DNA of 64,000 nt from Eledone cirrhosa (Eukaryota), in NCBI GenBank assembly GCA_964016885.1, contig OZ024742.1, positions 220,534,001 to 220,598,000 of the forward strand, in the 5' to 3' direction. Positions 18,130 to 56,345 of this stretch are shown one piece after another. The notes under the pieces were generated by a model, which saw nothing but the letters and a program-made list of their open reading frames with translations, did no database searches and had not been told where the DNA came from. The position numbers and the translations under genes were made by a program. Position 1 is the first letter of the stretch; each line of letters begins with the position of its first letter.

Positions 18130-21100
18130 TGGGTTGACAACCATCCATACCACATCCCTTTCTTCTTCCTAACTAAGACCCATCTTAACAACTCCCACAT
18201 GGAAGCTAAAATGAAGGTGAGGAATTTTACAACCATCTGCGCAGATCATGCCAGCAGAAGGAAGGGAGAAATTGCCATTTTCCTGCATGATTCCTTTACA
18301 GCAGATGGATGTACCATATTATCCAATAGCTACTGTGAACAAGTTACCACGCACAACAAAGCCAATGATTTGATAGTAGTTGGGCTCTATAGGCTACCCC
18401 AATCACCCTTACCATGCTTTAAAGAATGCCTCAACAACATTAAGTGTTTTATACAACATTGCCATTCTGGTAATATACTTATGATGGGAGATTTTAATCT
18501 ACCCTGTGTTGATTGGTCACAAACAGTTTGAAACCAGGTACTTCCACCTCAACCACTGTCAAAGCAGCAGGAGAATCACTACTCGACTTCATGGATGAGT
18601 TTTTTCTTGTCCCAACTTGTCCTTGCACCAACAAGATATCAGAAAAAACATTTTGGACCTAGTGTTTAATAACCACACTAACTATGCACAATACTTCAGT
18701 GGAAAAACCCTTCTCTCTGATTATGAGATGGTACTCTGTAACCTGAGATCCCACAAGCTGAAAGCTAAACCCAATGACTTCTCTCCAGCCTGCTCATTTG
18801 ATAACATGGATCTTCATAATGCCAACTAGGATGCAATCACTAACGATCTATCACATGTTGACTGGACATACATTTCCACCAACTTCAAAACATCCTGGCA
18901 GATATTTATAGACACTGTCACAAACATATGTGCAAAACATACCCCATCAAGATTTGTGAAAAAAACTAAGTGCAGAATCACCCAAAACAGAAAAACTTTT
19001 ATCTAAAATACTGCCAACAGTAACACACACATTTAACTGCTATTGCACACTCAAATTGAACAGCTAAGGAAGAATGGGCCATTAAGAAAATCAAACTCAA
19101 TCCCAAAGTGTTCTTTTCATTTGAAAAAAAAAAAACACGGTCACTGTCTCCACTGCTGGCCCTTTGATTGATGAAAATGAGACTCTCCAAGACAATGCTA
19201 AAACAATGGGTGAGATACTGCAAAATCAATACTACTCTGTTTTCAGCAATCCTGATATGGCTGATCTGGGCCCCTGATGTCTTAGCGGCATAAAACGAAA
19301 TTAAACACAATTCAGCAGTAGGCCCCGACAGGTTCCCTGCATGTGTTCTGAAGGTGCGTTGACACCAATTTGCATCTCCTCTTGCTAATCTGTGAAGGAA
19401 CTCACTGGATGCTGGCTATATACCTGAAAACTTCCTGTCCCAGTCTGTTTTTCCTGTTTTTCCTGTTTTTCCTGTCTGTTTTTTTTCAAAAAGGGAAACA
19501 AGCCCCTTGCAGTGAATTACTGTCTGATCTCACTCCCCTCTCATATCATCTTTGAGAGGGTGGTGAGATCATGAATAACTCACTTTTGTGAAAGCAACTA
19601 TCAGCTGAACTCCAAACAACATGGGTTCCGTAATGGAAGGGACTGCCTAATGCAGCTCCTGCATCATTCTGATGACATGTTAAGAGCTTTGGGAGAGGGA
19701 TCTTACACTGATGTCATATACCTGGATTTCAGCAAGGTCTTTGACTGGGTTGATCACAACATCCTATTGAAAAAACTATCCTGCATTGGTGTCTCTGGAA
19801 AGTTACTAAAATGGATCAAGTGTTTCCTGACAAACAGATCCCAACATATTGTAGTTGAAGAAGTACAATCAAGCCTAGCCAAAGTCAGTAGTGGTGTCCC
19901 ACAAGGCACTATGTTAGGCTCACTTCACTTCTCTTCATTATTTATATCAATGAGTGTGGATCAAGGGCGGTGGATTGGCAGTATTGGTAGAGGCTCGGAC
20001 GTCATGCTTTGACGCATAGAGTTACGGCCCTTTCCATTCTGAGTTCAAATCCTGCCGAGGTTAACTTTGCCTTTCATCCTTATGGGGTCGATAAAATAAA
20101 GTACCAGTAATGTACTGGTTAATTTCTGGCCTTGTGCCAAAAGTAGAAACAATTATTTATATCAATGACATTATCGACATCGATGTCGATAATGTCATTG
20201 ATATAAATAAGTAACATAAGACTCTTTGCAAATGATTCCTAGCTCCAGAAGGTCATCAATGGAGTGGGTGACCAGACATGCCTTCAATCAGATCTACTTG
20301 CTGTTATCCAATAGGCAGAAAATACTATATGCTGCTGAATGAGAATAAATTTGAACTAATCTGCTTTGGAAAAGAGGATACACTGAAACTATCATATTCT
20401 GTTCCCTCAGATGAAACCCTCATGTCATCCAACAACATCAGAGACCTGGGAGTAATTGTTGATAACAACCTAAGCTGGACTATATAAACAACAAAGTTGA
20501 CATAGCCCAAAGGGTGTGTTCTTGGATTCTCAGAACTTTCCAGTTAAGAAATATCCACACCATTATCCTTCTCTACTTTTGCCCAACCCTACATTAAATA
20601 GTGTTGTCCACTGTGGTCTCCCCACAGAAAACAAACTATTATGAAAATTGAACCACCTCAAAGGTCAATCACAAAAAAGATAGTTGGCATGTCAGGCCTT
20701 GACTATTTTAGTCGACTAGAAAAGCTCAAACTCTACTCTCTCCAATGCCATCGTGAGCGCTACATTTTCTGCATGATGTGAAAAATATTCCATCAGCATT
20801 GCCCAGATGATGTTGGCATCATCTTTAAAATACACCTAAAGCTTGGGCCCAGTACTATCTGCCCACAACAAAAATCAAACATGCAACTCATAACAACATT
20901 ATGACACAATTATTTCACCTCAATTGGTCCCACTCTCTTTAATATTACACCAAAACACATTAAAACAGAAACAAACCCCATAAAATCCAAAAGGTCTTTG
21001 GACAAATTCCATCAAGAAACTTGGATAAACCTCTAACACCATGATATGCCTCTGTAAACAATAACTCTCTACTTGAGTGGGCCATGGTATCCAAATCCTG

Positions 21101-21180
21101 ATTTGAAAGATTTGCAAGATGGTGTTATTAAGTTAGACATGGCCTGGATCAATACTGGCCGAAACCTGTCAAAGTTATTA
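18130..21180 (+). mobile_element. degenerate CR1-like LINE, copy 1 (APE plus RT)
   Basis: GLYRLP, MMGDFNLPCVDW, NILDLVF, DVIYLDFSKVFD, SGVPQGT, RDLGVIVD; the 5' part may extend to ~17150. Confidence 0.85.
19954..20151 (+). mobile_element. young SINE (subfamily A) inserted in the CR1-like RT
   Basis: full head, core and tail; 17-bp TSD ATTATTTATATCAATGA at 19937-19953 / 20152-20168. Confidence 0.9.
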
Positions 21181-21380
21181 AAGATATGTACATATATTTA
21201 TATATGCATATGTATACTGGATTTACTTCCATAAGCATAATTAGTTAGAAAGTGAAAACATTTAAACATATAAATAAGTAGATATATTATCTAAAAATAA
21301 AAAGAAAGAAATAGCTATATGTATGTAAATAAATAAATATATATGTATATGTGTGTAAATATAACTTCTATTTATTACAG

Positions 21381-21455
21381 TATATACTCTGTGTGTCCAC
21401 CATATTCTGTATGGAGATTGCAGCTGGATCGATTGGTTTAGTTCGCAAAAATAAG
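21381..21455 (+). CDS. tetraspanin coding exon 3 (TM3)
   Basis: ttacag| YILCVSTIFCMEIAAGSIGLVRKNK |gtaac; conserved TM3 Glu; 75 nt, phase 0. Confidence 0.93.
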
Positions 21456-21489
21456 GTAACACTCTCTTTCTTACTCTTTCTCCAAGATG

Positions 21490-21990
21490 TCCTTTGTACA
21501 AAATATCTTGCTCGGGGTTTACCTCTGGGTTTCATGTCAGTTGGTTTTGACTGTAAAATAAGTCCAACAATTCTTTCTCTAGCCATTCTACATTACTCAA
21601 AAGACCTTTCTTTGGAGGAACCCTATTTCAGCTGATCTATTTGCGATTGTCTTCTTTAGGTCATGACCCAAGATTCATGACCATATGTAAGGGTAGTCAT
21701 GAACACTGAATTGAAGATAGTGAGTTTGGCATTTACACCGACCTCCCTTCTGCTGATGACCAAATGCTGAAGCTGGCACATTACTGCATTACCTCCTGCA
21801 ATTCTTGCACTTAATTCAGTCTCTTACCTGCCATCACTCATGAAAATGGTCCTAAGACACTTGAACTTCTCCACCTGCTTCTCACATGTAGAGTTTCTCT
21901 GTCTTCACAGCACAGATCTTCATTCCTTCCGTGCAGTACTCGGCAGCAAACCTATCAACTGTATTCTTGCATTTGTACCCATCCTTCAGA
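21490..21990 (-). mobile_element. RTE LINE 3' fragment
   Basis: reverse-complement similarity to 11090-11290 (gaagatc.gtgctgtgaagacagag, gcaggtggagaagttcaag). Confidence 0.65.
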
Positions 21991-22467
21991 ATTCGATCAT
22001 CATGATCATTAGCATCACTGCTATTAATAATTATCTAATTATCTGGTATGTATTACATCACTGATGGACCATTTGAGAACTTTCCAAGTTACATCTTCTC
22101 CATCGCCACACTTAGCTGGTTTTGGCCAGTATATATTCACGCAGGACTATGCCCCATACCCTGGTGGCTATGGTCAGAGTAACTATCATCGGCATAATAG
22201 TATCTATAAAAACAGGATATATATCCCCACCATACTAGCCCAACACCTACCAAACCCACATTCACTAGCTTGCTATTCGAGGATGGTCTGCAACAACAAT
22301 TATACCTAGGTCGCAGGCCATTTCCAAATCAAATATTTCATCTATATTTTTTCTATTCTTTCTCCACTTGTATATGCCATAATTCCTTTATTGATTAACT
22401 AATTATGCAATCCACACCTAATGATGTCACCAGGATCTTACATAATCAGGCCATTGAAATATATATG

Positions 22468-22795
22468 GAGGCACATGGCTTAGTGGTTAGAGCATTGGCC
22501 TTGCAATCGAAAGGTTGTGAGTTCAATTCTCAGACCGGGTGATGTGTTGTTTCCTTGAGCAAGACACTTTATTTCACATTGCTCCAGTTTACTCAGCTGT
22601 AGAAATGAGATGATAGGACTGGGGTCCCTATCATTCCACTGCAAAGTGGTCGTGGAGGTGCCACAGCATAAAAGCACCCAGCACTCACTGTAAATGAGGT
22701 TGGTGTTAGGAAGGGCATCCAGCTGTAGAAATCAAGCCAGAATCAGTTCCTGTCCCACCCTTGCCAGAAGGGAAAAGCGGACGTAAAATGAAATG
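22468..22795 (+). mobile_element. tRNA-derived CORE-like SINE with RTE-like 3' part
   Basis: TGGCTTAGTGGTTAGAG (A box), GAGTTCAATTCT (B box), TCCTTGAGCAAGACACTT, then ggaagggcatccagctgtagaa. Confidence 0.75.
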
Positions 22796-23149
22796 TTATA
22801 GTGTTTTAGCAACAATAAAACTTTAAAGGAATATCACCAGTCCAGCCTTCTGTTATTTTAATCAAATCAATATTCAACTCCATTCCTGCATCAACCACTG
22901 GATTCAACATCAACGATGGATGAGTTGCATGATGTAGAGTGCCTTTCTTGCTATTATATCATGGTTAACTAAATGGAATGACAAGTTATATCCAGTGGTG
23001 AACCACTAAACATAAATGAATATACTTATATATATATCATCATAATCACCACGCGAGCATGGGTTAGACGAGCTGTCCTATTTGAGGCAAGTTGGGTCAG
23101 AACTGTTTCTGACTAGATTTCTATAGCTGAATGCCCTTCCTAATAGAAC

Positions 23150-23452
23150 CACATTTACAGTGTGTGCTGGATGCTTTTTACTGTGACTCCAACACGACCA
23201 CTTTATAGTGTGGAATGGGTGCTTTTTTTCGTGTCACCTACAAGACCACTTTACAGTGTGGGCTGGGTGCTTTTTGCCATGACTCCTACATGACCACTTT
23301 ATAGTGTGGGCTGGGTGCTTCTTTGTTGTGACACCTACATGATCACATTACAGTGTGGGCTGGGTGCTTTTTGTTGCGACTTCTACATGACCACTTTACA
23401 GTGTTGCCTGGGTGCTTTTTGTCACAACTCGTACACAACCACTTTACAGTGT
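23150..23452. repeat. ~50-bp minisatellite (~6 units) inside a SINE-like element
   Basis: CCACTTTACAGTGTGGGCTGGGTGCTTTTT..TGACACCTACATGA repeats; ~1.5 units also at 12735-12805. Confidence 0.85.
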
Positions 23453-23829
23453 GTATATATATATATTAAGTAGATATATAATATATTAAGCAGTGCACTA
23501 AGCAGTCAAGATATATAAAATTACACAGCAGTCTTGGTTACTTTCATTTTGTAAACAACTTTATCACACACACGTGTGTGTGTGTATGTATGTATATATG
23601 TATGTATGTATATATGTATGTATACTGTCTTTCCTCACTTTAAAAAAAAATCTTCACGCATAGGCATTGCACAATAGAATTAATTAATAATTATTAATAA
23701 TCGTATATCGTGCAATGGCCATACTCAATAACAACGGGACAGCCATCATGTATGTATGTATGTGTATGTCTCTCTTTCCCTTAATTTCGAGTACATTTTT
23801 GACCTGGTGGCAAGGTTGTAAAAGAAAAG

Positions 23830-24290
23830 AAATTGCCATTCCTTGAATTGCAAGAATATTTTGCAAATTTTGAAGGTGCCAGATATCGTAGCCATTTGTA
23901 GTCTATGAATTAGGGAGCTGCGCTCTTTGTCCACAAATCCAAGTTCAGTTATACTTTGGTTCAAGTGGGTTGGTATATAATCTGTAGCTCCAATAATGAT
24001 GTGTATGAAGCTGAAGGTGTATCTTGGATACTGGATCTGCAAACTCCTTATCAATGGTCCGTAGATGTCCTTCTCTTGTACTTTTCTTACAACGTTGACA
24101 TTAAGTGGGCAGCTGATCTCTACAACAATATCAGGCCAGTTGTGCTTTAATTTGGTGGCAGTTTTTATTTTCAGGTTCCACCAGTATTCTTTAGTGCCAT
24201 CTATCTCAACATATTCCTCCTCATTTGTTTTTAATTTTGTTTTCCTAAGTGGTTCTAGCTATCACATTGTATCTCATAGGGAGTATGTAT
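23830..24290 (-). mobile_element. RLE-type (R4-like) non-LTR 3' fragment
   Basis: SLQIQYPRYTFSFIHIIIGA..LQMATISGTFKICKIFL. Confidence 0.7.
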
Positions 24291-24534
24291 GTATGTATGT
24301 TCTTCTGGTTTTATAATTTCATAATGTTTGCCAATAGAGAGAGAGTCGGTTTCTAACATAGACACAAGACTCTCTCATTGGAATTTACACAACATCAGCT
24401 AGGTAGATATGTATGCATGTCTGCATGCATAAATGTGTAGATATGGATGTTATTGTATGTGTGGATGTAGATGTTTTGAGTTGTATGTGTGCATGTGTAT
24501 ATGCTTTGTATCTGTACATGTGTATATGTAGTTA

Positions 24535-24915
24535 TTAGATGCAAAGTTTTTGGAATGTTTTACATATTTTTACTGTTCCATTAATGGATTTTACTTGTAA
24601 TTTCCTAACTAGTTGTGTTCTTTCTGTTCCTGTGAAGCCTAGCTTCTCAAGATTTGTATTGAGGCAGTTACTAACATACCCCAGTGCCCCAATAATCACA
24701 GGCATAAATCTGAAGGTATAATCAGGGTGGAGTATCTGCAGATTTCTCATCAGTTCTGCATAAATATTCTCCTTTTCGCTAATCTTTGATATTATATTGG
24801 CATCTGCTGGACAGCTAACTTCCACTACTGTGCATGCTTTCTTTTCCCTGTCCCCATATAATAATATCAGGTCTGTTATGCCTGCATCCCTATCTCTTTT
24901 GTGAATCAGGTATTT
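24535..24915 (-). mobile_element. RLE-type (R4-like) non-LTR 3' fragment
   Basis: DLILLYGDREKKACTVVEVSCPAD..EKENIY..FMPVIIGALG..GTVKICKTF (PD-D/ExK-like endonuclease). Confidence 0.8.
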
Positions 24916-24929
24916 CGTGTATGTATGTA

Positions 24930-25510
24930 TCTGGGCAGCATCCTGACAAGCAGCGGCGACGCGGAGCTCGACATCAACTGTCAGATCGGCAAAGGAGCCG
25001 CGGTTTTCCAGTCTGGTCGTCTTCATGCATTAGCACCAAGACCAAGCTCTGCCTATACAAGAGCATCGTGCTGCCGACAGTGCTTTATACGAGCGAGACC
25101 TGGAAGAGTACGGCAAAAATAGAGAGACGGCTGAACGCTTTCCACCAGCGGTACCTGCGAAAGATCCTTCGTGTGTCCTGGTGCGACCGAGTGCGAAACG
25201 AAGAGATCCTGCGGAGAGCCTAGTTCTGGACACTACAGAGAGTGGTCACGGAGCGTCGGTGACCTCTGGCTGGCCATATTCTGCGTCTATCAAATGAACA
25301 GCATTCGAAAACAGCGATGAACTGGACTCCGCCTAGCAGTAAACGGAGGCGGGGTTGGCCAAGGATCACCTGGCGACGAACGTTCCGGAAGGACCTGATG
25401 GCAGTCAACATCACCTGGCACGGTCTCGAAAAAGTTGCCACTGATCGTGACCGTTGGCGAGTACTTACTGCTCGATGCGCCGAATGGAGCAGAAGAATCT
25501 AAGACTAAGA
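24930..25510 (+). mobile_element. 5'-truncated, GC/CpG-rich RTE LINE
   Basis: YLGSIL..LYKSIVLPTVLYTSETW..RVRNEEILRR..RRRGWPRITWRRT..DRDRWR; (CTAAGA) tail; flanked by TGTATGTATG. Confidence 0.88.
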
Positions 25511-25846
25511 TGTATGTATGAAGTCAATGTAGAAATGATGATAATGATAATATGCATTTTTATCTTCGTTTGGAAACTTCATTATATATATTTTCAATAT
25601 ATAAGTAAACGCTTACCTCCCCTTAATAGAAGTGGGAAAGACACGGCCAAACTTAAGTCACTCTACAGTTTTACTAGTTAAAACTCTATTAGCAGGCAGC
25701 AATAAAAGGTAATACTATGAAAACAGAAGACATTCTAATTTATTACCTTCTCATTGTTATCTCTACGTAATTGCCATGTTTGTGTTTTATTTTTGTTTAT
25801 TGTTTTTTTTTTGTTTGTTTTTTTGGTGGTGTGGAACATTGTTTAG

Positions 25847-25924
25847 TTGGAAAAAGATCTGATCAGCGACCTGCTCGAAAATATGAAAGACAAACAGAAA
25901 AACTGGGACATCATCCAGGAAACG
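25847..25924 (+). CDS. tetraspanin coding exon 4 (large extracellular loop helices)
   Basis: gtttag| LEKDLISDLLENMKDKQKNWDIIQET |gtgagt; WDxxQ motif; 78 nt, phase 0. Confidence 0.92.
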
Positions 25925-26139
25925 GTGAGTGTAATTTATAAGTCTGTCTCTTTATGTGTCTGCATTTACTCTGATGAATGTGTGAACATTTTTAGGCTGT
26001 TCTCCTGTCTGTTTTAATGCATCCATATTCTTGTGTATGTAGGGAAGGTGAATTCATGAATATATACATATATATATATATATATATAAACAAGAAGTGT
26101 AGGTCAACAGGTTACAATTAACTTTGTTTAATCATATTC

Positions 26140-26199
26140 GCTGTTATATATATTTCGGTAATAACCATTATGCAACAGCTATGACCTCATCAGACAACT
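26140..26199 (-). ncRNA. minimal type I hammerhead ribozyme (candidate)
   Basis: GUUGU-CUGAUGA-[GGUCAUAGC..GGUUAUUACC]-GAAA-UAUAUA-UA^ACAGC. Confidence 0.7.
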
Positions 26200-26269
26200 A
26201 GAATTTGAACAGGGAAAAAAAAACAGAAAAACATATTGATGGAATAAAGTATAAGACACGTTTCTGGAC

Positions 26270-26448
26270 AGGGCGCAGGGTTAAACTGCCAGCTATTGCT
26301 GGTACTCATTTTTTAGCTGCGTATACTGAAGCAACGTGAAATGAAATATTTTGCTCAAGAGCACAAAACACAACACAGTCCAGGAGTCGAACCCACGACA
26401 TTATGACCGTAAGTCTAACACCCTTACCACAAGGCCACGCGTCTCCAC
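26270..26448 (-). mobile_element. tRNA-derived CORE-like SINE
   Basis: homologous to 5322-5573; GGAGACGCGTGGCCTTGTGGTAAGG..GGTTCGACTCC. Confidence 0.7.
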
Positions 26449-27439
26449 AAAAAACAAGTAACATAGCAATTCGTTAAATATAGATCAATGAAACAAGTGT
26501 AAGACTGAAACTGGTACTGGATTCGATTATGATAGATTAAAACTTTTGGTGACACTACTTTGGCATGACACAAACTAAATGACCGAAACCTGTAAAACAA
26601 AATAATTAAGAATAATAAAATATATATGTAAGCATAAGAAAAAAGAGACGAACATTTGGATAATGTAATCTTAGATATAGTGGTTAAGAAGGATGAGACA
26701 GACACTGCTAGAATGTGTTATACGTCTGTTGGGTAAAAGTAACAATTAATTTGGATATTCATTTTTTTTTTCGAGAAGAAAACCATCAGGCAATGTATGA
26801 GTAACTTCCCTTGCATATGTCACCTTTATGTATTGAAAGGGAGAGTACTCGTAAACCATGTGCTTATATACAGTACAATTTTGTTCTGACTTATATTTTG
26901 AGTTCAAATCCTGCCAAGGGACCGATAAAATAAACTACTAGTCAAGTACTAGAGTTGATTTAATCACTTTGACCTCCCCCCATTTTCTGCTTTTATGACT
27001 CAATAATATTGAATACAGTTTATAGTAGGTAATATTGACTGGGGATTTCACGAGGAATATCAAGCGAAAAGTACACCATTTGTATTTTAGGAATGTATTT
27101 TTAAGATATCTAACGTTATTACCATTCATGGTAGAGATATGGTCCCATAACGCCTGAAGGAGTCGTATGGGTGTCGTAATGGCATACAGCGTTTCTTGGT
27201 CATTTTTAAAACTTGGCGGAGCTTATCTTTTCTCCAGGTCTGAACACAGCAGATTTCTTACAGAGAAAGACAGAAAGGAGATAGAGAGGATGTGAAAAAG
27301 AGATATAGAAGAAGAACTGACCCCAGTACTAGACTGGTACTTTTTTTATCGAATGGAATGATGCATAATAATATCTTACTGAAACAATGACATGATTTTT
27401 CATTATATAGTTTCCTACACACACAAACATGGATAGGGG

Positions 27440-27587
27440 TATGTATGCTATATGATAAGCCTATGTATGCTACATGATAAAGTCTATGTATTCTATATGA
27501 TAAAGTTTATGTATGCTTCATGATAAAGTCTATGTATGCTACATGATAAATGTATATATACTACATGATGATGTCTATGTATTCTAG
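27440..27587. repeat. ~23-bp tandem repeat (~6.5 units) ending at the exon 5 acceptor
   Basis: TATGTATGCTACATGATAAAGTC units. Confidence 0.85.
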
Positions 27588-27707
27588 AACAAATGCTGTG
27601 GAGTAAAAAACTACACTGACTGGATAGGAGAAGTGGCCTCCCCAGTAAACCTTCCAAATTCCTGTTGTATAGTCCAATGTCAAAGCACTAAAGATGCTTT
27701 TGTATTA
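27588..27707 (+). CDS. tetraspanin coding exon 5 (CCG exon)
   Basis: ttctag| NKCCGVKNYTDWIGEVASPVNLPNSCCIVQCQSTKDAFVL |gtgagt; CCG, DW and PxSCC signatures; 120 nt. Confidence 0.95.
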
Positions 27708-27726
27708 GTGAGTATAACACGTTTTA

Positions 27727-27728
<2 letters not shown>

Positions 27729-27801
<73 letters not shown>

Positions 27802-27884
27802 GAAGTAATTCCGTCGGAAAGGTCCAGGATAAAAGAGGGCTCTATGTAGGTTACAGAGCTTATTTATGTATATATATATATAAA

Positions 27885-27934
<50 letters not shown>

Positions 27935-28035
27935 TATATATATAAATATATAAATATAAATATATATATATAAATATATAAATATATATATATATAAACT
28001 TATATATATATAAACTTATTTATATATATATAAAC
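27729..28035. repeat. (CT)n and (TA)n microsatellites
   Basis: long TA runs. Confidence 0.9.
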
Positions 28036-28248
28036 TCTAAACAAAGAGAGGACAAGATAACGAACAGAAACAAGGCAAAACGAAAATTAATTTTTTAAGA
28101 GGAACCCATAAAAAATTAATAAAAAAAAAAAAATACAAACGAAGGCCACAGAACTCCATGGTGATCGGCTGTTGAGGTGGACGTTGGCAGTTTCTACCTC
28201 TATCAACGGTACTTCTGGTCCACCCGGGGTCATAAACACATTCACAGA

Positions 28249-28303
28249 CCGCATACACTCACTAAAGCACACTAATGCAGAGAGGGGTAGGGATAGAGGG
28301 ATC

Positions 28304-28337
<34 letters not shown>

Positions 28338-48100: not shown

Positions 48101-49345
48101 TGAGCATTGGTGCAATTGTCTATGGTCCCTGACATACAGTATCATATAGATGAGCATTGGTCCCTGACATATAGTATCATATAGATGAGCATTGGTGCTA
48201 TTGTCTATGGTCCCTGACATACAGTATCATATAGATGAGCATTGGTCCCTGACATATAGTATCATATAGATGAGCATTGGTGCTATTGTCTATGGTCCCT
48301 GACATACAGTATCATATAGATGAGCATTGGTGCAATTGTCTATGGTCCCTGACATACAGTATCATATAGATGAGCATTGGTCCCTGACATATAGTATCAT
48401 ATAGATGAGCATTGGTGCTATTGTCTATGGTCCCTGACATACAGTATCATATAGATGAGCATTGGTCCCTGACATATAGTATCATATAGATGAGCATTGG
48501 TGCTATTGTCTATGGTCCCTGACATACAGTATCATATAGATGAGCATTGGTCCCTGACATATAGTATCATATAGATGAGCATTGGTGCTATTGTCTATGG
48601 TCCCTGACATACAGTATCATATAGATGAGCATTGGTCCCTGACATACAGTATCATATAGATGAGCATTGGTGCTATTGTCTATGGTCCCTGACATACAGT
48701 ATCATATAGATGAGCATTGGTCCCTGACATATAGTATCATATAGATGAGCATTGGTGCAATTGTCTATGGTCCCTGACATACAGTATCATATAGATGAGC
48801 ATTGGTGCTATTGTCTATGGTCCCTGACATACAGTATCATATAGATGAGCATTGGTCCCTGACATATAGTATCATATAGATGAGCATTGGTGCTATTGTC
48901 TATGGTCCCTGACATACAGTATCATATAGATGAGCATTGGTGCAATTGTCTATGGTCCCTGACATACAGTATCATATAGATGAGCATTGGTGCAATTGTC
49001 TATGGTCCCTGACATACAGTATCATATAGATGAGCATTGGTGCAATTGTCTATGGTCCCTGACATATACTATCATATAGATGAGCATTGGTGCAATTGTC
49101 TATGGTCCCTGACATACAGTATCATATAGATGAGCATTGGTCCCTGACATACAGTATCATATAGATGAGCATTGGTGCTATTGTCTATGGTCCCTGACAT
49201 ACAGCATCATATAGATGAGCATTGGTGCAATTGTCTATGGTCCCTGACATACAGTATCATATAGATGAGCATTGGTGCAATTGTCTATGGTCCCTGACAT
49301 ACAACATATAGATTAGTATTGGTACAATTGTCCATGGTTTCTGAC
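36114..49345. repeat. 50/35-bp tandem satellite, ~13 kb, intronic
   Basis: unit GACATACAGTATCATATAGATGAGCATTGGTGC(A/T)ATTGTCTATGGTCCCT interspersed with a 35-bp deletion variant; degenerate edges. Confidence 0.98.
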
Positions 49346-49637
49346 TGTCAAAGGTGACGGTGGGAGGAGGCCAGACCAGACCGACCAGTTAAGTACTGAG
49401 ACCAATATAATTAACTTTCTTCCCTCAAATTTCTGGCCTAAATTTAAAAAAAAGCAGTATTTTGTATTAATTCATCAATTTGATTGACTGTAGGTAAGGG
49501 GTGTTTAAGTTTAGATCATTGATTACCTCAACAAGAATGTAGCTTTTTATTGCAGTAAAAATTGAAACATTTTAATTCTATCTTTTTGAAAACTCTATTG
49601 ATTCAACTAATGGTCCTTTTTTTTTTTATAATTCCAG

Positions 49638-49688
49638 ATTATTCTCCTAGTTATTGCAAGCATATTTCTATATTTGATGCGGAAATAG
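49638..49688 (+). CDS. tetraspanin last coding exon (IILLVIASIFLYLMRK*)
   Basis: strong T-tract acceptor ttccag; completes TM4 in phase 0; stop TAG; AATAAA downstream. Confidence 0.85.
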   Translation: MILLVIASIFLYLMRK

Positions 49689-49854
49689 CCTGCTGTTCAC
49701 ACCCAATGAACCCATAATGATCTTCCACCCCTGTTATAAATACAGGACACATACACACAAACACTCTGCTCCACTCCAAACCTATAGAAGAATTAAAAAG
49801 AAGACAATATTAATTCTGAAAGTTTCTTCTTCAAACCATACAAGGAGAATGTAA

Positions 49855-49860
49855 AATAAA
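49855..49860 (+). promoter_or_regulatory. candidate polyadenylation signal
   Basis: AATAAA ~170 nt after the stop, followed by T-rich sequence. Confidence 0.4.
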
Positions 49861-49957
49861 AAGAATACTTTTGTACATATTTTATTGGTCAGAAAGAAGT
49901 CGACAAGTAACTTACACCATCATGTAGAAATAAATGAATTTTTAACAAAACACATAA

Positions 49958-49988
<31 letters not shown>

Positions 49989-50072
49989 TATATATAAATG
50001 TCAGTGTAGATATGGACCAAATTTGTGTTGAACCATCGTTGGTCAGAAAGCAAATAAATTAATGTGTGAAAG

Positions 50073-50110
50073 TATATATACACACATACATATATATACA
50101 TACACACACA

Positions 50111-50166
<56 letters not shown>

Positions 50167-50172
50167 TATAAA

Positions 50173-50238
<66 letters not shown>

Positions 50239-50286
50239 TATATACATATATATATATACATATATACATATATATACATATATATA

Positions 50287-50346
<60 letters not shown>

Positions 50347-50404
50347 CGTATATACATATATACATATACATATATATATATGTATATATGTATATGTGTA
50401 TATA

Positions 50405-50449
<45 letters not shown>

Positions 50450-50477
50450 CATATATACAAATATATATATATATATA
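50073..50477. repeat. (TA)n-rich microsatellite
   Basis: long interrupted TA runs. Confidence 0.95.
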
Positions 50478-50781
50478 AGCAGAAGGGATATTCAATTTGT
50501 CGGTAATTCAACAAATATAAATGTTTATAACTGATTCAGACACTCGACAAGTTTTCTGGAGTATAATATTCAATGATATTAAATAAATGAAAACTATATT
50601 TATAAAACCATATTTATTCTATTATATATATTTCAAGGGTACTAAAAACTTTAGTACGCTTTCATCAGATAAAATACAAAGTGTGTTTTATAAATTTTTA
50701 CATAGCCAAGGAACATATCTTATCGGTTGGAAAACTTCAACCAATAAGGTATGTTCCTTGGCTATGTCAAAATTTATAAAA

Positions 50782-50838
50782 CTTTATCTGATGAAAGTGT
50801 ACCAAAGATTTTGGTACCCTTGAAATATATATAATAGA
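50782..50838 (+). ncRNA. minimal type I hammerhead ribozyme (candidate)
   Basis: UUUAU-CUGAUGA-[AAGUGUACCAAA GAU UUUGGUACCCUU]-GAAA-UAUAUA-UA^AUAGA. Confidence 0.7.
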
Positions 50839-50877
50839 ATAATATATACTTGTATATATATATAATAATTATACTTG

Positions 50878-50918
<41 letters not shown>

Positions 50919-51282
50919 GAATTAGGTCCAAAATTAATTAAAGGTGTTCATCATTTTTTTCAATATACAGGGAAATTTGTGTTTTTTGGCATATTTACAT
51001 GCCTACATATTGAATGTGCATATATTTACTTATTAGTTCAGTCTCAGTTACATACTCTGTATATATATATATATATACGTGTAAAATGAGTTGCAATGTC
51101 TCTGGTACCAAGCTCTATCAGCCATTGTCTTTCCCTTGGACAACATTGGTGACATGGAAAGGAGTGACTGGTATACATGTGCAACTGCTGGTCTACCACA
51201 AACAACCTGGCCTGGGCCTTTGTCATGGAGGTGTACCTTCTAGGTGCAAATCCCATGGTCATTTGTGACCAAATAGGGTTTT

Positions 51283-51324
<42 letters not shown>

Positions 51325-51329
<5 letters not shown>

Positions 51330-53200
51330 CTGTTATTTTGTCAACTTAAGAACACATTGAACAATTCGATTACAGCTTTGACAAGACAACAAATCGCAGA
51401 ACCATCTGAATTCCCTAATTGCTCTGAAAACCTTTGGCCAACAACGAATTGATACTGTGATTCATCACTGGAAAGCAGCTTCAATTCAGTTGCATAATAG
51501 ATCAGTTGAGAAACATCGTGATATATTGAAAAGGTCAATTCATTGTGTTGAAATGTTGTCCTGTTAAGAATTATCATTTTGAAAACACGATGAAACAGAA
51601 GGATCAAACAATAAGGGTAATTTTCTGGCTATATGTGAAGCAGTAGCAGAATACAATGATTGTTTAAGATCGCATTTAGATTTTATGAAGAAAAATGCTT
51701 ACTACACATTTTCTGGACTTTCAAGTTATATTCAAAACAAAATCATTAATTCTATGGCTGCTACAATTGAATGTGAAATTAAGGCAATGATAAAAAAAAA
51801 TCATCATTTGTTGCGGTTATATTTAATGAGACTACGGATCTTTCAATGAAATCTCAATTTACACGTATTTTGCGATTTGTTGACGAGAAGGAAAAGCCTC
51901 AAGAAAGGTTTTTGTGATAGGTCGATGTCAGTAAAAATAGAAGAGCTGCATTGGTGACAGAAGAAGTTTGAAAATTTGTTAATGAATTCAATTGTGGTAA
52001 AAAATTCATCACACAAAATTATGATGGAGCAAGCGTGATGACAGAGTATTTGAACAGAGTGCAAACAAGAACGAAGGAGATTTTTTTATGTGAACGTCAT
52101 GTTTGTACATTGTTATGTGCATTCACTTAATTTGGTACTCTCTCAATCAGCTTCAAGTATTCATGAATTCTCTTCCAAACTTTAAAAGGAACTTTTTTCT
52201 CAAAGTTGACAACTCAAATAGCTCTATTGGATGAAATTGTTGGAAGACGATTTCCCAAATTACCTGAGACATGTTGGAATTATTCATTTTGACAGGTATC
52301 TATTTTATTTGATAAAATTACTGTTTTCTGAGCCATTTTCAACGATATAAAATCGGGAAGATTGGAATGCTTCAGAATTAGAGCAGGGAAGGGGATTCAT
52401 TGCAACACTAGAAGATTTTCAGTTTAAATTGTTATTAGTAGTTTTTGAAACCATATGAGTAGTTCAGGAATTCTGTTTTCGATTCTTCAAAAAGGTTTCC
52501 TTGATATTTCGAGGTGCATTCATTGGGTTGAAGATTTCCAGAAACAATTGGTTGATATCAAGAACAACAAGTTTGAGGAATTTTACTGTCGGGTTCTGTA
52601 AGGTGTCGCTGAACCACTGGAGAAGCGTGGTCGATATCAAGAACCAGTTGTTTAAAGAATTTTGTTTAACAACATTTTGGATGAAGTTATTGTTCACGCT
52701 GAGCAAAGATTTTAAAAAATAGGAGAGTTCAGATTTGTTGAATTGTTGAATCCAAAGCTTTTTCATGCTTACGAAAAAAAATTTCCGATGGAAACGTTTT
52801 CATTCTTGGGTATCTTTATAAACATATTGGATTTGGATGGACTGAAATGCGAGCTGAAATTAGTTTATGCTGCAGATTTTGCAAAGCAGCTGTCAAGCAT
52901 CCAAGTTCGCAGACATAATACAGGAACTTGAACTAAATCAAGCTCTGGCAGAAGCAACAAAATTATTACGCCTGATTCTGGCTATACCTGCCACATCTGC
53001 TTCATGTGAGAGATTGTTTTCTTAATTAAAGCGAGTAAATAATTATATGAGGTGTTCTCAATGTGAAGAGAGATTGAGTAATTTGGTCTTCATTTTCATG
53101 AATTTTGAAGAAGATGAAGGTAGAGTGTGGTGCTGATGTATTTTATAGCAAAGTGATTGATGAATTGAACTGATTTACAAAGGAATTTTAAGTATCTCAT
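51325..53200 (+). pseudogene. decayed hAT transposase (DUF4371/ZMYM1-like)
   Basis: NKGNFLA, SSYIQNKII, NETTD, ERF, QNYDGASVM, VHCYVHSLNLVL, IPATSASCERLFS*LKRV; many frameshifts. Confidence 0.85.
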
Positions 53201-53744
53201 TATTTGAAGGTTTGTTATTTTCTCATATTTCTCTCGTAACCAATAAGGGTCATCATGACAGGTCCTTCGACAGGGTGTTACTAATGGGGAGACATCAAAT
53301 CCAGTGGAGAGGGGTATCAAGCCTGAAGTGTTGTCTGCTGGTAGATGTGCATTTTCTTACATTAGGATTAGCTCATATTACATTTACAAATGGAGGAGAG
53401 GACGACGAATAATTTTGCAGAGGAGGTTGAGGCTTCACAGCCACACTCTCCACCATGGTGACTGGACTGCATGCCCGCTTTCCAAGTTACCCTACAACAC
53501 TGCTCTGCAGTACATACATCTCTCACTAGCTATGCTGATAACACAAAGGTAGCACAGGCAATCAGGAACCCGGCTGATGCTACTCATTAACAAGATCTGG
53601 ATGCCATATACAAATGAGGTGAGAACAAAAACATGCAATTTAATGCTGGAAAAGCTCTACACTACCAACCTGCAAACACCAGGACAGTACAACAAAGCTA
53701 CATATATATCTATATATATGTATTATACTTTTCATTTTCATTTA

Positions 53745-53764
53745 TATATATGTATATATATATA

Positions 53765-53843
<79 letters not shown>

Positions 53844-53875
53844 TCATCTTCGTTTAACGCTAGCATGGGTTAGAC

Positions 53876-53931
<56 letters not shown>

Positions 53932-53945
53932 TATATATATATATG
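53745..53945. repeat. (TA)n microsatellites
   Basis: TA runs. Confidence 0.9.
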
Positions 53946-54125
53946 ATGGCTGCAAACTCACGCTAAGAATATTGCTGTAGAAATCAAGCTGTAGAAATCA
54001 GTTATAGAATCAGCTGTTGAAATCAAACCCAAATCGGTTCTGTATGAGCATAACATGGTCGCCTGACCTAGCATTGCTCACAACAGGATAACTCATGCCA
54101 GCAGGGAAAAATGGATGTTAAACAG

Positions 54126-54159
<34 letters not shown>

Positions 54160-54174
54160 ATATATGTAGCTTTG

Positions 54175-56345
54175 ATTACTTTGATAGGTTTTGGCCAGTA
54201 TTGGCACAGGCCATGTCTAACTTAATAGCACCACCTGGCGAAGTCTTTCAAATCAGGATTTGGACACCATAGTCCACTCAAACAGAGAGTTATTGTTTAC
54301 AGAGGCATATCCTGGTGTTAGAGGTTTATCCAGGATTTCTTGAAGGAATTTGTCCAAAAACCTTTTGGATTTTATGGGATTTGTTTCTGTTTTAATGTGT
54401 TTTGGTGTAATGTTAAAGAGAGTGGGACCAATTGAGCTGAAATAATTGTGCCATAATGTTTGTTGTTATGAGTTGCAAGTTTGATTTTTGTTGTGGGCAG
54501 AGAGTACTGGGCCCAAGCTTTAGGTGTATTTTAAAGGTGATGCCATCATCATCTTGGCAATGCTGATGGAATATTTTCCACATCATGCAGATGGCATTGG
54601 AGAAAATAGAGTTTGAGCTTTTCTAGTCGACCCCCAATAGTCAAAGCCTCTCATATCGTCTATCTTTTTTGTGATTGACCTTTGAGGTGCTTCAATATTC
54701 ATAATACTTTGTTTTCTGTGGGGAGATCACAGTGAACAACAGTATTCAAGGGGCAGTCGGGCAAAGGTAGAGAAGAGAAGGTTAATGGTGTGGATATTTC
54801 TCAAATGGAGAGTTCTGAGAATCCAGGAACACATTCTGCGGGCCATGTCAACTTTGCTGTTTATATGAGTGGCCCAGCTTAGGTTGTTTTTGACAATTTC
54901 TCCCAAGTCTCTGATGTTGTTGGATGCCACGAGAGTTTCACCTGAAGAAAGGGAATATGGGAGTTTCAGTGCATCTTCTTTTCCAAAGTGGATTAATTCA
55001 AATTTATCCTCAATCAGCAACATATTGTTCTTTTCCGTGCATTGGATAACAGCAAGTAGATCTGATTGAAGGCATGTCTGGTCACCCACTCTATTGATGA
55101 CCTTCTGGAGCTAGGAATCATTTGCAAAGAGTCTTATGTTATTGTGTTGATGATGTCAATAATGTCATTGATATAAATAATTGTTTCTACTTTTAGCACA
55201 AGGCCAGCAATTACCCAGTGCATTACTGGTACTTTATTTTATCGACCCCGTATGGATGAAAGGCAAAGTCAACCTCGGCGGGATTTGAACTCAGATCGTA
55301 AAGAGACGTAACTATGCTGGAAAGCATGGCGTCCGACCCTCTACCGATACTGCCAATCCACCGTCATTGATATAAATAATGAAGAGAAGTGAAGTGAGCC
55401 TAACATAGTGCCTTGTGGGACACCACTATTGACTTTGGCTAGACTTGATTGTACTCCTTCAACTACAATATGTTGGGCTCTGTTTGTCAGGAAACACTTG
55501 ATCCATTTTAGTAACTTTCCAGAGACACCAATGCAGGATAGTTTTTTCAATAGGATGTGATCAACCCAGTCAAAGGCCTTGCTGAAATCCAGGTATATGA
55601 CATCAGTGTAAGATCCCTCTCCCAAAGCTCTTAACATGTCATCAGAATGATGCAGGAGCTGCATTAGGCAGTCCCTCCCATTATGGAACCCATGTTGGTT
55701 GGAGTCAGCTGATAGTTGCTTTCACAAAAGTGAGTTATTCATGATCTCACCACCCTCTCAAAGAATATATGAGAGGGGAGTGAGATCAGACAGTAATTCA
55801 CTGCAAGGGGCTTGTTTCCCTTTTTGAAAAAAAACAGACAGGAAAAACAGGAAAAACAGACTGGGACAGGAAGTTTTCAGGTATATAGCCAGCATCCAGT
55901 GAGTTCCTTCACAGATTAGCAAGAGGAGATGCAAATTGGTGTCGACACACCTTCAGAACACATGCAGGGAACCTGTTGGGGCCTACTGCTGAATTGTGTT
56001 TAATTTTGTTTATTGTCGCTAAGACATCAGGTGTGCCAAACGTTATGTCTGATATAGTGTGTTGGAGGTTAATATCACTGATACGGCCCAGATCAGCCAT
56101 ATCAGGATTGCTGAAAACAGAGTAGTATTGTTTCTGCAGTATCTCACCCATTGTTTTAGTATTGTCTTAGAGAGTGCCATTTTCATCAATTAGAGTGCCA
56201 ACAGTGCAGACAGTGGCCTTGTGATTTTTTGCAGCTGTTTTTTTGGTTATTGATGATGATCTTCATGCATTGCTAGAGGTTATATGTTTTTTATTCAAGC
56301 AGTGCGATAGCAGTCAAATGTGTGTGTTGCTGTTGGCAGTCCTAT
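54175..56345 (-). mobile_element. degenerate CR1-like LINE, copy 2
   Basis: inverted homolog of ~19010-21180; YLDFSKAFD, SGVPQGT. Confidence 0.88.
55182..55363 (-). mobile_element. young SINE (subfamily B) in CR1-like copy 2
   Basis: TSD TCATTGATATAAATAAT at 55165-55181 / 55364-55380. Confidence 0.9.

What the first reader, a model, noticed from the sequence alone, without database searches (positions are those of the whole stretch)
19937..55380. Two different SINE subfamilies sit at the identical nucleotide of two CR1-like copies
The inverted CR1-like copies each carry a SINE bounded by the same TSD, ATTATTTATATCAATGA. The insert at 19954 has subfamily-A diagnostics (GACGCATAGAGTTACGGCCC..CATTCTGAG) and a 12-nt 5' extension. 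The insert at 55182 has subfamily-B diagnostics (CCAGCATAGTTACGTC..GATCTGAG) and starts at CGGTGG. Simple duplication would give one subfamily. Inference: either parallel insertion at a hot spot (SINE homoplasy, normally assumed rare) or gene conversion of one SINE after duplication.
Basis: partly seen in the sequence, partly recalled or inferred. Interest (0 to 1): 0.75.

Follow-up and report, generated by a model that had tools for sequence, protein, structure and literature searches.

The report
SINE landing hot spot inside a LINE
Two short mobile elements of different subfamilies sit at the same nucleotide of two copies of a larger mobile element, most likely because each landed there on its own: the spot matches the short element's preferred landing sequence, and other copies of the larger element across this genome carry differently joined inserts at the same point, so such insertions are not always one-off events.

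Summary
The 17-base repeat ATTATTTATATCAATGA flanks a 198-base SINE at 19954-20151 (+) and a 182-base SINE at 55182-55363 (-). The two inserts belong to two real subfamilies.

The hot-spot reading is supported. The site lies in the reverse-transcriptase codons FIIYIN of an endonuclease-bearing LINE. I found 28 inserts at this point in 26 LINE copies. They include three subfamilies and a second SINE family, and all but one pair have different 5' junctions. Two copies were hit twice.

Genome-wide, 16 of 33 copies reading ATTATT at the site are filled, against 4 of 87 reading ATTATC. In an unbiased sample, 0 of 27 copies lacking ATTAT are filled. Every SINE 3' junction sampled starts RTTAT.

The two LINE copies are not simple duplicates. 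Their 5' ends differ, and their identity is a mosaic (about 97% around the site, about 84% elsewhere). This points to gene conversion between independent copies and explains the identical target.

A single insertion later overwritten by SINE-to-SINE conversion is unlikely. This is a new, well-quantified example of a known phenomenon.

The parts
17763..21216 (+). LINE copy A (non-LTR retrotransposon with endonuclease and RT), interrupted by SINE A
   Evidence: aligns to the longer family member L093 (reverse complement positions 3080-6411) in three pieces, 17763-19008, 19077-19938 and 20210-21216. L093 ORFs hit RVT_1 (3.4e-28) and Exo_endo_phos_2 (6.3e-8).
19937..19953 (+). 5' copy of the target-site duplication of SINE A. 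It encodes I-I-Y-I-N of the RT motif LFIIYIN.
19954..20151 (+). SINE A: A-type subfamily, full length with the 5' head GTGTGGATCAAGGG
   Evidence: L008 carries the same head.
20152..20168 (+). 3' copy of the target-site duplication of SINE A
20153..20210 (.). Perfect 58-nt palindrome (29-nt arms) in copy A only. The right arm is an inverted copy of the TSD plus the downstream LINE sequence, and it replaces about 10 nt that are present in copy B.
   Evidence: (21-nt gap in B).
19246..20291 (.). Tract in which copy B is by far the closest relative of copy A: 94.5-98.7% identity, against 81-92% for the next-best copy. It is read as gene conversion between the inverted copies. The SINE inside it is not homogenised.
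   Evidence: A+B sister 100/100, stem 0.067, tips 0.011.
20781..21075 (.). Second A-B high-identity patch (93.9%, next-best copy 85.9%). It is separated from the first by 20292-20780, where B ranks only third (83.5-83.9%).
54158..56413 (-). LINE copy B. It is 5'-truncated about 1.2 kb short of copy A's 5' end and is interrupted by SINE B.
   Evidence: aligns to L093 (reverse complement) 4307-6396 only; only about 72% identity to A over the first 190 columns.
55364..55380 (-). 5' copy (in element orientation) of the target-site duplication of SINE B
55182..55363 (-). SINE B: B-type subfamily, starts at CGGTGG without the head
55165..55181 (-). 3' copy of the target-site duplication of SINE B

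Best explanation
The two SINEs were most likely inserted independently, one into each LINE copy, at a sequence-determined landing site, C^ATTATTTATAT, that lies in the LINE's reverse-transcriptase codons F-I-I-Y-I-N.

Shown directly:
- Every sampled 3' junction of this SINE reads ...GTAGAAACA followed by RTTAT.
- The upstream copy of the duplication also carries ATTAT, so it is target sequence.
- The base before it is mostly C or T, and position +6 is T-rich and C-poor.
- The LINE site matches this pattern, and 26 LINE copies carry 28 inserts at this point, with different 5' junctions, duplication lengths (5 to 20 nt) and subfamilies.
- Occupancy follows the site's spelling: ATTATT 16 of 33, ATTATC 4 of 87, no ATTAT 0 of 27.

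Inferred mechanism: target-primed reverse transcription. The partner LINE's endonuclease nicks the bottom strand just left of ATTAT. The freed 3' end pairs with the AUUAU end of the SINE RNA and primes cDNA synthesis. The second nick falls 5-20 nt downstream, often at 17-18 nt, and the 5' end is joined with variable truncation or filler.

Inferred history of this pair: copies A and B are independent LINE insertions 35 kb apart in inverted orientation. Gene conversion made their central kilobase nearly identical, which is why the target and its duplication are the same. The two SINEs probably landed after that conversion. The order is not settled.
For: (1) Different events in A and B.
- Their 5' junctions differ by 14 nt.
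- The subfamily-diagnostic differences, 11 substitutions and a 2-nt indel, span about positions 44-160 of 184.

(2) Recurrence at the same site.
- An unbiased LINE sample was queried without the SINE or the site. Of 38 other copies, 5 are filled at or next to the site: 4 of the 9 that carry ATTAT and 0 of the 27 that do not (Fisher p=0.002).
- Exact-pattern counts genome-wide give 20 filled and 102 empty copies. ATTATT is 16 filled / 17 empty and ATTATC is 4 / 83 (p=9e-8).

(3) Independence of the events.
- The 5' junctions are catalogued. All differ except L099 and L104.
- L020 carries two SINEs, and the second duplication includes the filler TAG left by the first insertion, so the two hits were sequential.
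- L101 carries a different SINE family plus an 8-nt fragment.
- The 3' flanks of filled copies are at most 89.7% identical (median 81.4%, 157 pairs), so none are recent duplicates.
- On the LINE tree, 'filled' needs 6 changes, well-supported branches force at least 4, and 0% of bootstrap trees give one origin.

(4) Target rule from samples chosen without regard to the target.
- 36 of 36 3' flanks read RTTAT. Position +6 is T in 22, A in 10, G in 3 and C in 1.
- In 40 events with resolved duplications away from the hot site, the -1 base is C 20, T 13, A 6, G 1, and 4 are re-insertions directly behind another SINE end.

(5) A and B are not a simple duplicate.
- Their 5' ends differ.
- Their identity is a mosaic.
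Against: - A and B are each other's closest relatives around the site. A shared filled ancestor followed by change within the SINE therefore cannot be excluded on flank phylogeny alone.
- Each SINE has somewhat more private changes than the flanks predict if both landed after the conversion. The count is 6 for A (3 of them CpG to TpG) and 4 for B in 184 nt, against about 2 expected from LINE tips of 0.011. The order of events is therefore open.
- The heat of the site is only partly explained. A weight matrix of positions +6 to +17 puts it at the 82nd percentile of the window's 218 ATTAT sites.
- The same 12-mer elsewhere in the genome appears about 7% occupied (7 of 100 listed sites). It could reach about 17% if half of all insertions have C at -1. 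The LINE context shows 48%.
- ATTATT-type LINE copies also sit on longer tree branches than ATTATC-type copies, so age may contribute to the tenfold contrast.
- The link to a partner LINE is weak. Tail similarity was reached by 13 of 500 shuffles.
- ARAGORN and Rfam do not recognise a tRNA in the SINE.
Confidence: 0.85

Rival explanations
1. There was one insertion. The filled site was copied to the other LINE copy by the A-B conversion (or by duplication). One SINE was then overwritten by non-allelic gene conversion from an unlinked SINE of the other subfamily, and it also lost or gained the 14-nt head.
For: A and B are sister copies around the site, with tips of 0.011. Conversion clearly acts at this locus. 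SINE-to-SINE conversion that changes subfamily identity, both partial and complete, is documented for Alu (PMC8230782, abstract and passages).
Against: - The tract would have to cover nearly the whole element, from about position 44 to about 160 of 184.
- A 14-nt difference flush with the duplication boundary cannot come from a donor that lacks the LINE flank. It would need a separate deletion ending exactly at the boundary. Only 4 other indels of 5 nt or more occur in about 2.2 kb.
- Differences outside the diagnostic positions are also denser in the SINE (about 9-10 in 184 nt) than in the adjacent flanks (about 2.5%).
- In primates, conversion-caused homoplasy was estimated to be rarer than parallel insertion (PMC8230782 passages).
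- The site's measured occupancy makes a second hit cheap.
Confidence: 0.07
2. Both SINEs were inserted independently but before the A-B conversion, and the conversion, being patchy, skipped the SINE. This is still parallel insertion; only the order differs from the preferred history.
For: Conversion here is visibly patchy: high-identity patches at 19246-20291 and 20781-21075 are separated by an unconverted 20292-20780. Private changes in the SINEs (6 and 4) exceed the roughly 2 expected from the post-conversion tips. A 14-nt heterology could block branch migration (inference).
Against: It needs converted sequence on both sides of a 200-nt unconverted island whose edges fall within about 60 nt of the SINE ends. 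CpG decay (3 of A's 6 changes) and differences among source genes can account for the excess private changes; the youngest sampled copies already differ from their consensus at 2-3 positions.
Confidence: 0.3
3. The site is hot not mainly because of the short motif but because of homing. SINE copies already sitting in this LINE site would give read-through transcripts whose 3' tails carry the downstream LINE sequence. These tails would pair over a long stretch with the same site in other LINE copies.
For: Occupancy in the LINE context (16 of 33) is several times that estimated for the same 12-mer elsewhere (about 7-17%). No run of four T follows the site in the LINE sequence, so read-through is conceivable (inference). 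L005 carries short LINE flanks on both sides of a SINE amid microsatellites.
Against: No transduced LINE 3' flank was seen at any of the 40 non-LINE SINE insertions examined. L005 also carries 29 nt of upstream LINE, which an internally promoted transcript would lack, so it looks like a LINE remnant. L009 shows the same 17-mer filled outside a recognisable LINE. The T-versus-C effect at +6 appears equally in the unbiased non-LINE sample.
Confidence: 0.08
4. A LINE master copy that already contained the SINE was amplified as a composite, so the filled copies would descend from one insertion.
For: Filled copies cluster among the older ATTATT-type lineages on the tree. Shuffled labels need 13.7 changes on average, against 6 observed.
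Against: There are different 5' junctions, different duplication lengths, three subfamilies and a second SINE family at the site. About half of the ATTATT copies are empty. 0% of bootstrap trees give a single origin. An insertion 17 codons upstream of the FADD box would disrupt the RT reading frame.
Confidence: 0.02

Closest known systems
Hot spots for SINE insertion inside the mys retrovirus-like element of Peromyscus (Cantrell et al. 2001, Genetics 158:769). I saw only its title in reference lists; the paper is not held, so its content is recalled.
   Same: A dispersed repeat family provides many paralogous copies of one sequence, and different SINEs insert independently at the same positions in those copies.
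   Different: Here the host element is a non-LTR LINE and the site is in its RT coding region. The SINE does not end in poly(A) and its junction always reads RTTAT. Occupancy could be measured per site variant (48%, 4.6%, 0%).
CanSINE insertion hot-spot loci in Felidae (PMC4084570, passages read)
   Same: There are several independent SINE insertions at one locus with overlapping target-site duplications. Independence is shown by differences at the junctions and tails, and a target motif of the LINE endonuclease is proposed as the cause.
   Different: Those are orthologous single-copy loci compared across species, with overlapping rather than identical duplications and sometimes opposite orientation. 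Here the sites are paralogous within one genome, the first nick is at the same nucleotide, and the orientation is always the same.
Precise parallel retrotransposon insertions in primates and toothed whales (PMC10531181, passages read)
   Same: Two lineages acquire a SINE at the same position (shift of 1 nt or less), often of different SINE types.
   Different: The reported frequencies are 0.01-0.04% (primates) and 0.18-0.29% (toothed whales) of insertions. Here about half of the susceptible paralogous sites are filled. The two measures are not the same quantity, so the comparison is only qualitative.
Alu-Alu non-allelic gene conversion (PMC8230782, abstract and passages read)
   Different: Conversion cannot change a 5' junction beyond the shared homology. 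Here the junctions differ and the diagnostic positions span nearly the whole element.
LINE/SINE pairs of the stringent type that share a 3' tail and end in short repeats rather than poly(A), such as eel UnaL2/UnaSINE1, and target-specific non-LTR elements that land in microsatellites
   Same: The SINE 3' end is defined (...GTAGAAACA) and not poly(A). The LINE ends in ...CAAAGTTAT, followed by a repeated unit or (AT)n. The junction suggests priming by short base pairing with the target.
   Different: Similarity between the SINE tail and the LINE tail is weak here. The target is a short motif found at thousands of places, not a single genomic site.

Membership tests
SINE (short non-autonomous retroposon) | Short, no coding capacity, many dispersed copies | tested here: met
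   The element is 182-198 nt. There are 14 hits in the 64-kb window. Genome-wide, 1612 junctions share just one 11-mer target.
SINE (short non-autonomous retroposon) | Flanked by target-site duplications of variable length, with variable 5' truncation | tested here: met
   Duplications were resolved in 62 of 92 copies, at 8 to 20+ nt. Truncated copies appear.
SINE (short non-autonomous retroposon) | Head derived from tRNA, 5S or 7SL RNA with an internal pol III promoter | tested here: inconclusive
   ARAGORN finds no tRNA. Rfam gives no tRNA, 5S or 7SL hit at E<=1 on 19900-20200. Box A-like and box B-like strings (TGGCAGTATCGGTAGAG, GAGTTCAAATCC) were judged by eye only, against consensus recalled from memory.
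SINE (short non-autonomous retroposon) | 3' tail shared with a partner LINE | tested here: inconclusive
   Both end in RTTAT and share CTGG..CTGGCC, but the alignment score of 11 was reached by 13 of 500 shuffles.
   Pfam hits Exo_endo_phos_2 (6.3e-8) and RVT_1 (3.4e-28) on ORFs of family member L093.
   The 3' ends read ...CAAAGTTAT, sometimes CAAAGTTATCAAAGTTAT, followed by (AT)n in 6 of 7 other copies printed.
   No reference LINE set is available. Of the 120 homologues listed, none carries a clade name, and the best named hit is a hypothetical protein of Argonauta hians (61% identity).
Insertion hot spot in a repeated element | Independent insertions at the same nucleotide in different copies | tested here: met
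   There are 28 inserts in 26 copies. The 5' junctions are distinct in all but one pair, and the flanks are at most 89.7% identical. The tree needs 6 changes.
Insertion hot spot in a repeated element | Occupancy above that of comparable sites | tested here: met
   Occupancy is 16 of 33 for ATTATT, 4 of 87 for ATTATC and 0 of 27 without ATTAT. The window's ATTAT sites are about 4% occupied (9 junctions, 218 sites). The same 12-mer elsewhere is about 7% occupied. Only one other SINE hit lies in the 38 LINE pieces.
Non-allelic gene conversion between inverted repeats | Mosaic of near-identical and ordinarily diverged segments between two copies that are otherwise independent | tested here: met
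   Searches show the mosaic. The copies have different 5' ends. Donor and direction were not determined.
Strictly site-specific non-LTR element (single genomic target) | Insertions confined to one target sequence or gene | tested here: not met
   The duplications share only RTTAT plus an AT-rich bias, and insertions occur at many unrelated sites.

The most novel reading that the evidence does not exclude
This SINE family, and by inference the LINE that moves it, reads an extended target of about a dozen bases so strictly that preferred sites become saturated. One of the best such sites is a conserved reverse-transcriptase motif of the LINE family itself. The parasite would then preferentially land in, and break, copies of its own likely helper just upstream of the catalytic FADD box. 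The excess over the bare motif (48% against about 7-17%) would reflect a LINE-specific boost, such as homing through read-through transcripts. In this lineage, SINE presence/absence characters would be far from homoplasy-free.
Probability: 0.12. Interest if true: 0.75.

Novelty: new member of a known kind. Interest (0 to 1): 0.5.

Why it matters
SINE insertions are used as nearly homoplasy-free markers, and published rates of precise parallel insertion are well below 1% (PMC10531181). Here one genome provides a natural replicate experiment: over a hundred paralogous copies of one target, with spelling variants.

It shows three things.
- A SINE with a strict target rule can hit the same nucleotide again and again.
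- One base (T or C at +6) goes with a tenfold difference in occupancy.
- The same site can be hit twice in a row.

For this group of animals, shared SINE sites need junction-level checks before they are used as phylogenetic characters. Repeat annotators should also not mistake the recurrent LINE-plus-SINE arrangement for an ancestral composite family.

The case also shows that gene conversion between nearby LINE copies can make two independent targets look like one duplicated locus.

Tried and rejected
- **Simple divergence of a duplicated SINE.** Overall SINE identity (89.5%) equals that of the 3' LINE flank (89.6%), which at first suggested plain duplication. I rejected this when sliding identity showed about 97% in the immediate flanks and the differences proved to be subfamily markers.
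- **Segmental inverted duplication of a filled LINE.** Rejected as the whole story because the copies have different 5' ends, and B is no closer to A than other copies in 20292-20780 and 21076-21195.
- **Pfam on translations of copies A and B.** This failed because of 22 stop codons. I used ORFs of the better-preserved family member L093 instead.
- **tRNA origin of the SINE.** ARAGORN and Rfam gave nothing.
- **LINE clade from homologue names.** The names were uninformative.
- **SINE tail against LINE tail.** Only weak similarity.
- **A weight matrix of +6 to +17 as the full explanation of the heat.** The site reaches only the 82nd percentile, so this is insufficient alone.
- **Reading Cantrell et al. 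2001.** The paper is not held.
- **Earlier notes of this scan.** None exist for this genome.
- **Two literature searches** failed on term format. The first was rerun in another form; the second was dropped.
- **Orthologous loci in related species** could not be checked, because the genome has no relatives in the collection (stated).

Full report
**What is there**

The 17-base string ATTATTTATATCAATGA occurs four times without mismatch. It brackets a 198-nt insert at 19954-20151 (+) and a 182-nt insert at 55182-55363 (-). Chance expectation is 0.17 matches.

Both inserts are copies of an abundant short retroposon that ends in ...GTAGAAACA. The window holds 14 hits to it.

Each insert sits in a copy of one LINE family. 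Copy A is on the + strand and copy B on the - strand, about 35 kb apart. A better-preserved family member, L093, has ORFs matching RVT_1 and an apurinic-type endonuclease domain. The insertion point lies in the codons for F-I-I-Y-I-N, 17 residues upstream of the FADD box.

I could not verify the label 'CR1-like'. The 3' end (...CAAAGTTAT, then a repeated unit or (AT)n) is compatible with it. No reference set was available, and the homologue names are uninformative.

**Are the two inserts really different?**

Yes. Insert A has 14 extra bases, GTGTGGATCAAGGG, at its 5' end. This head recurs in other full-length copies such as L008.

The quoted 'diagnostics' are real subfamily markers. Other copies in the window carry one set or the other. 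In 69 copies I could class 32 as A-type, 13 as B-type and 13 as a third type; 11 stayed unclassed. The sample leans to A-type because 39 loci were picked by likeness to insert A's 3' half.

The two consensus sequences differ at 11 substitutions and a 2-nt indel, spread from about position 44 to about 160 of 184. Insert A differs from its own consensus at 6 positions and from the other at 17. Insert B differs at 4 and 17. The differences are therefore not a short patch.

**What the two LINE copies are**

They are not a plain duplicate pair.
- Against L093, copy A runs from 17763 to 21216, while copy B covers only 56413-54158. Their 5' ends therefore differ by about 1.2 kb.
- Their identity is a mosaic:

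| Segment (copy A coordinates) | A-B identity |
|---|---|
| first 190 columns | about 72% |
| 19246-19953 | about 97% |
| SINE | 86-89% |
| 20152-20290 | about 96% |
| 20292-20780 | about 85% |
| 20781-21075 | about 94% |
| end of the copy | about 88% |

- Ranked against 40-odd other family members, B is by far A's closest relative in 19246-20291 and 20781-21075. It is only third in 20292-20780 and is not among the top six in 21076-21195.
- In a tree of the 5' flank, A and B are sisters with a long shared stem (0.067) and short tips (0.011).

I read this as two independent LINE insertions whose central parts were homogenised by gene conversion. That is why the target, and hence the duplication, is identical in both.

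**Is the site a hot spot?**

First sample. A junction search found other, more diverged LINE copies filled at the same point (L001, L002, L003, L005, L006) and one empty copy (L004). That search was biased, because the query contained the junction.

Unbiased sample. I then sampled the LINE family with a query lacking both the site and the SINE and fetched all 38 other scored copies.
- Five are filled at or next to the site: L018, L020, L024, L045, and L028 at the next ATTA 11 nt downstream.
- One copy (L032) lacks the site.
- L033 and L034 are identical to each other.
- Of the 36 copies with a readable site, 9 carry ATTAT and 4 of these are filled. The other 27 do not carry ATTAT (mostly CATCATCTACATTAATGA) and none is filled (Fisher p=0.002).
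- Only one other SINE hit lies anywhere in these 38 pieces.

Genome-wide counts. Exact patterns give 20 filled 3' junctions and 102 empty sites.
- ATTATT: 16 filled, 17 empty.
- ATTATC: 4 filled, 83 empty.
- Two empty sites were not listed and so were not classed.
- Fisher p=9e-8.

**Are these separate events?**

I fetched the 14 filled copies not yet seen and read all the junctions. In total, 26 LINE copies carry 28 inserts at this point.

| Class | Inserts |
|---|---|
| A-type | 8 |
| B-type | 7 |
| third type | 5 |
| too truncated to class | 7 |
| a different SINE family (in L101) | 1 |

- The left edge is always ...GAAACA|ATTAT, except in L028.
- The upstream duplication copy is 5 to 20 nt long, and 17-18 nt in about nine inserts.
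- The SINE starts at different bases or after different filler.
- Only L099 and L104 share a junction. It has a 3-nt TGA microhomology, and their flanks differ.
- L020 has two SINEs in tandem. The second duplication includes the filler TAG left by the first insertion, so the site was hit twice in succession.
- L102 has a target deletion of about 110 nt. In L103 the upstream flank is unrelated sequence.
- The downstream flanks of filled copies are at most 89.7% identical (median 81.4% over 157 pairs), so none are recent duplicates.
- On the LINE tree, 'filled' needs 6 changes, well-supported branches force at least 4, and no bootstrap tree gives a single origin.

**Why this site?**

I sampled 39 SINE copies using only the SINE's 3' half as the query.
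- In the 36 with a readable end, the next five bases are A/G-T-T-A-T without exception. Position +6 is T in 22, A in 10, G in 3 and C in 1, and the following bases are AT-rich.
- In 40 insertions away from the hot site with resolved duplications, the upstream copy also starts with this motif, so it is target sequence. The preceding base is C in 20, T in 13, A in 6 and G in 1. Four of the six A cases are re-insertions directly behind another SINE's end.

The LINE site C^ATTATTTATAT fits this rule, and the poor ATTATC variant carries the disfavoured C at +6.

Inference: the nicked bottom strand pairs with the AUUAU end of the SINE RNA and primes reverse transcription. The LINE family's own 3' end also finishes in GTTAT, which makes it or a relative a plausible partner. 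The tail similarity is weak, however (13 of 500 shuffles as good).

**What remains unexplained**
- A weight matrix of positions +6 to +17 puts the site only at the 82nd percentile of the window's 218 ATTAT sites.
- Genome-wide there are 1612 junctions of the SINE end with ATTATTTATAT and 4244 sites reading CATTATTTATAT (the backwards control gives 4042).
- I paired the listed coordinates on contig C1 up to 105.56 Mb. There, 7 of 100 C-sites lie 144-205 nt upstream of, and on the same strand as, one of 34 filled junctions. This gives about 7% occupancy. It could reach about 17% if half of all insertions have C at -1, as.
- The LINE context, at 48% (16 of 33), is therefore several-fold hotter than the bare 12-mer.
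- Wider sequence context, the greater age of ATTATT-type LINE copies (they have longer terminal branches), or a LINE-specific boost may account for the rest.

**The rival for this particular pair**

Because A and B are sisters around the site, a single insertion could have been copied by the conversion and one SINE later overwritten from an unlinked SINE. Three points count against this.
- The tract would have to span nearly the whole element.
- A donor without the LINE flank cannot alter the 5' junction, so a separate 14-nt deletion flush with the duplication boundary is needed. Only four other indels of 5 nt or more occur in 2.2 kb.
- Non-diagnostic differences are denser in the SINE than in the adjacent flanks.

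By contrast, a second hit at a site with about 48% occupancy is cheap. My rough odds are a few hundred to one for two insertions. This rests on assumed rates and is only a guide.

The order of events is open. If both SINEs landed after the conversion, about 2 private changes each are expected from the tips of 0.011. The observed counts are 6 (three at CpG) and 4. A patchy conversion that skipped SINEs already in place therefore remains possible. It would still mean two insertions.

**Comparison with what is known**
- Hot spots for SINE insertion inside a dispersed repeat were reported for the mys element of Peromyscus (Cantrell et al. 2001). I saw only the title in reference lists; the paper is not held, so its content is recalled.
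- Felid CanSINE loci with four to six independent insertions and overlapping duplications are described in PMC4084570 (passages).
- Precise parallel insertions were measured at 0.01-0.04% in primates and 0.18-0.29% in toothed whales (PMC10531181, passages).
- Alu-Alu conversion that changes subfamily identity is documented but rarer still (PMC8230782, abstract and passages).

The present case is a new and unusually well-replicated member of this kind. I made no literature search specific to this SINE, this LINE or this animal group, so I make no claim that it is unpublished.

**Verdict**

The hot-spot interpretation is supported, with confidence 0.85 for two independent insertions. The simple-duplication premise is corrected to gene conversion between independent LINE copies. 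Interest is moderate: the phenomenon is known, but the strength, precision and single-base dependence of this hot spot are worth recording.

Noticed in passing
window 20153-20210: There is a perfect 58-nt palindrome (29-nt arms) in LINE copy A, right at the SINE's 3' junction. Its right arm is an inverted copy of the duplication plus the downstream LINE sequence, and it replaces about 10 nt that are present in copy B. It looks like a fold-back or template-switch event. Whether it arose during SINE integration is unknown.
   Followed up: partly
window 62745-63021 (- strand): A full-length B-type SINE (62835-63021) is followed, after its duplication, by a 74-nt 5'-truncated SINE (62745-62818). 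The upstream flank of the truncated copy is the first SINE's end plus ATTATCATTACCATCA. This is an in-window example of re-insertion at the same nick site. Four of 40 resolved events show this arrangement.
   Followed up: partly
L033 (G000:C1:249124751-249127374) and L034 (G000:C1:247979618-247982241): Two LINE pieces about 1.15 Mb apart in opposite orientation are identical over the 377-nt tree segment and give identical hit tables. This suggests a recent large inverted duplication on contig C1.
   Followed up: no
G000:C1:143215979-143792942 (list): Eight + strand SINE junctions with the same 17-mer lie at steps of about 58-130 kb, mostly about 59 kb: 143215979, 143345446, 143405478, 143510644, 143569947, 143628812, 143687104, 143792926. 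This suggests a tandem segmental duplication array.
   Followed up: no
L009 (G000:C2:389143300-389145900), around 1285-1519: A SINE is flanked by ATTATTTATATCAATGA(T) on both sides, in a context that does not align to the LINE. The same 17-mer therefore appears to be used outside a recognisable LINE copy. This locus was picked by likeness to the junction, so it is a biased find.
   Followed up: partly
L021, L025, L029, L035, L037, L039 (3' ends): The LINE's 3' end ...CAAAGTTAT is followed by long (AT)n runs in 6 of 7 other copies printed, and the last 9 nt are sometimes doubled. Either the family lands in (AT)n or it makes such tails itself.
   Followed up: no
window 6474-6574 and loci without a recognisable head: The 3' half of the SINE (from about GGTTGACTTTGCC onwards) also occurs joined to unrelated 5' parts. 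L101 shows a second SINE family with the same head but another tail ending in ...CAGAAACC, again followed by ATTAT. This looks like modular SINE families sharing one integration rule.
   Followed up: no
window 19273 / 56084, 19445, 20751: Copies A and B differ by a 53-nt indel (present in B only) and by 9-nt and 17-nt indels (present in A only), inside or next to the otherwise near-identical tracts.
   Followed up: no
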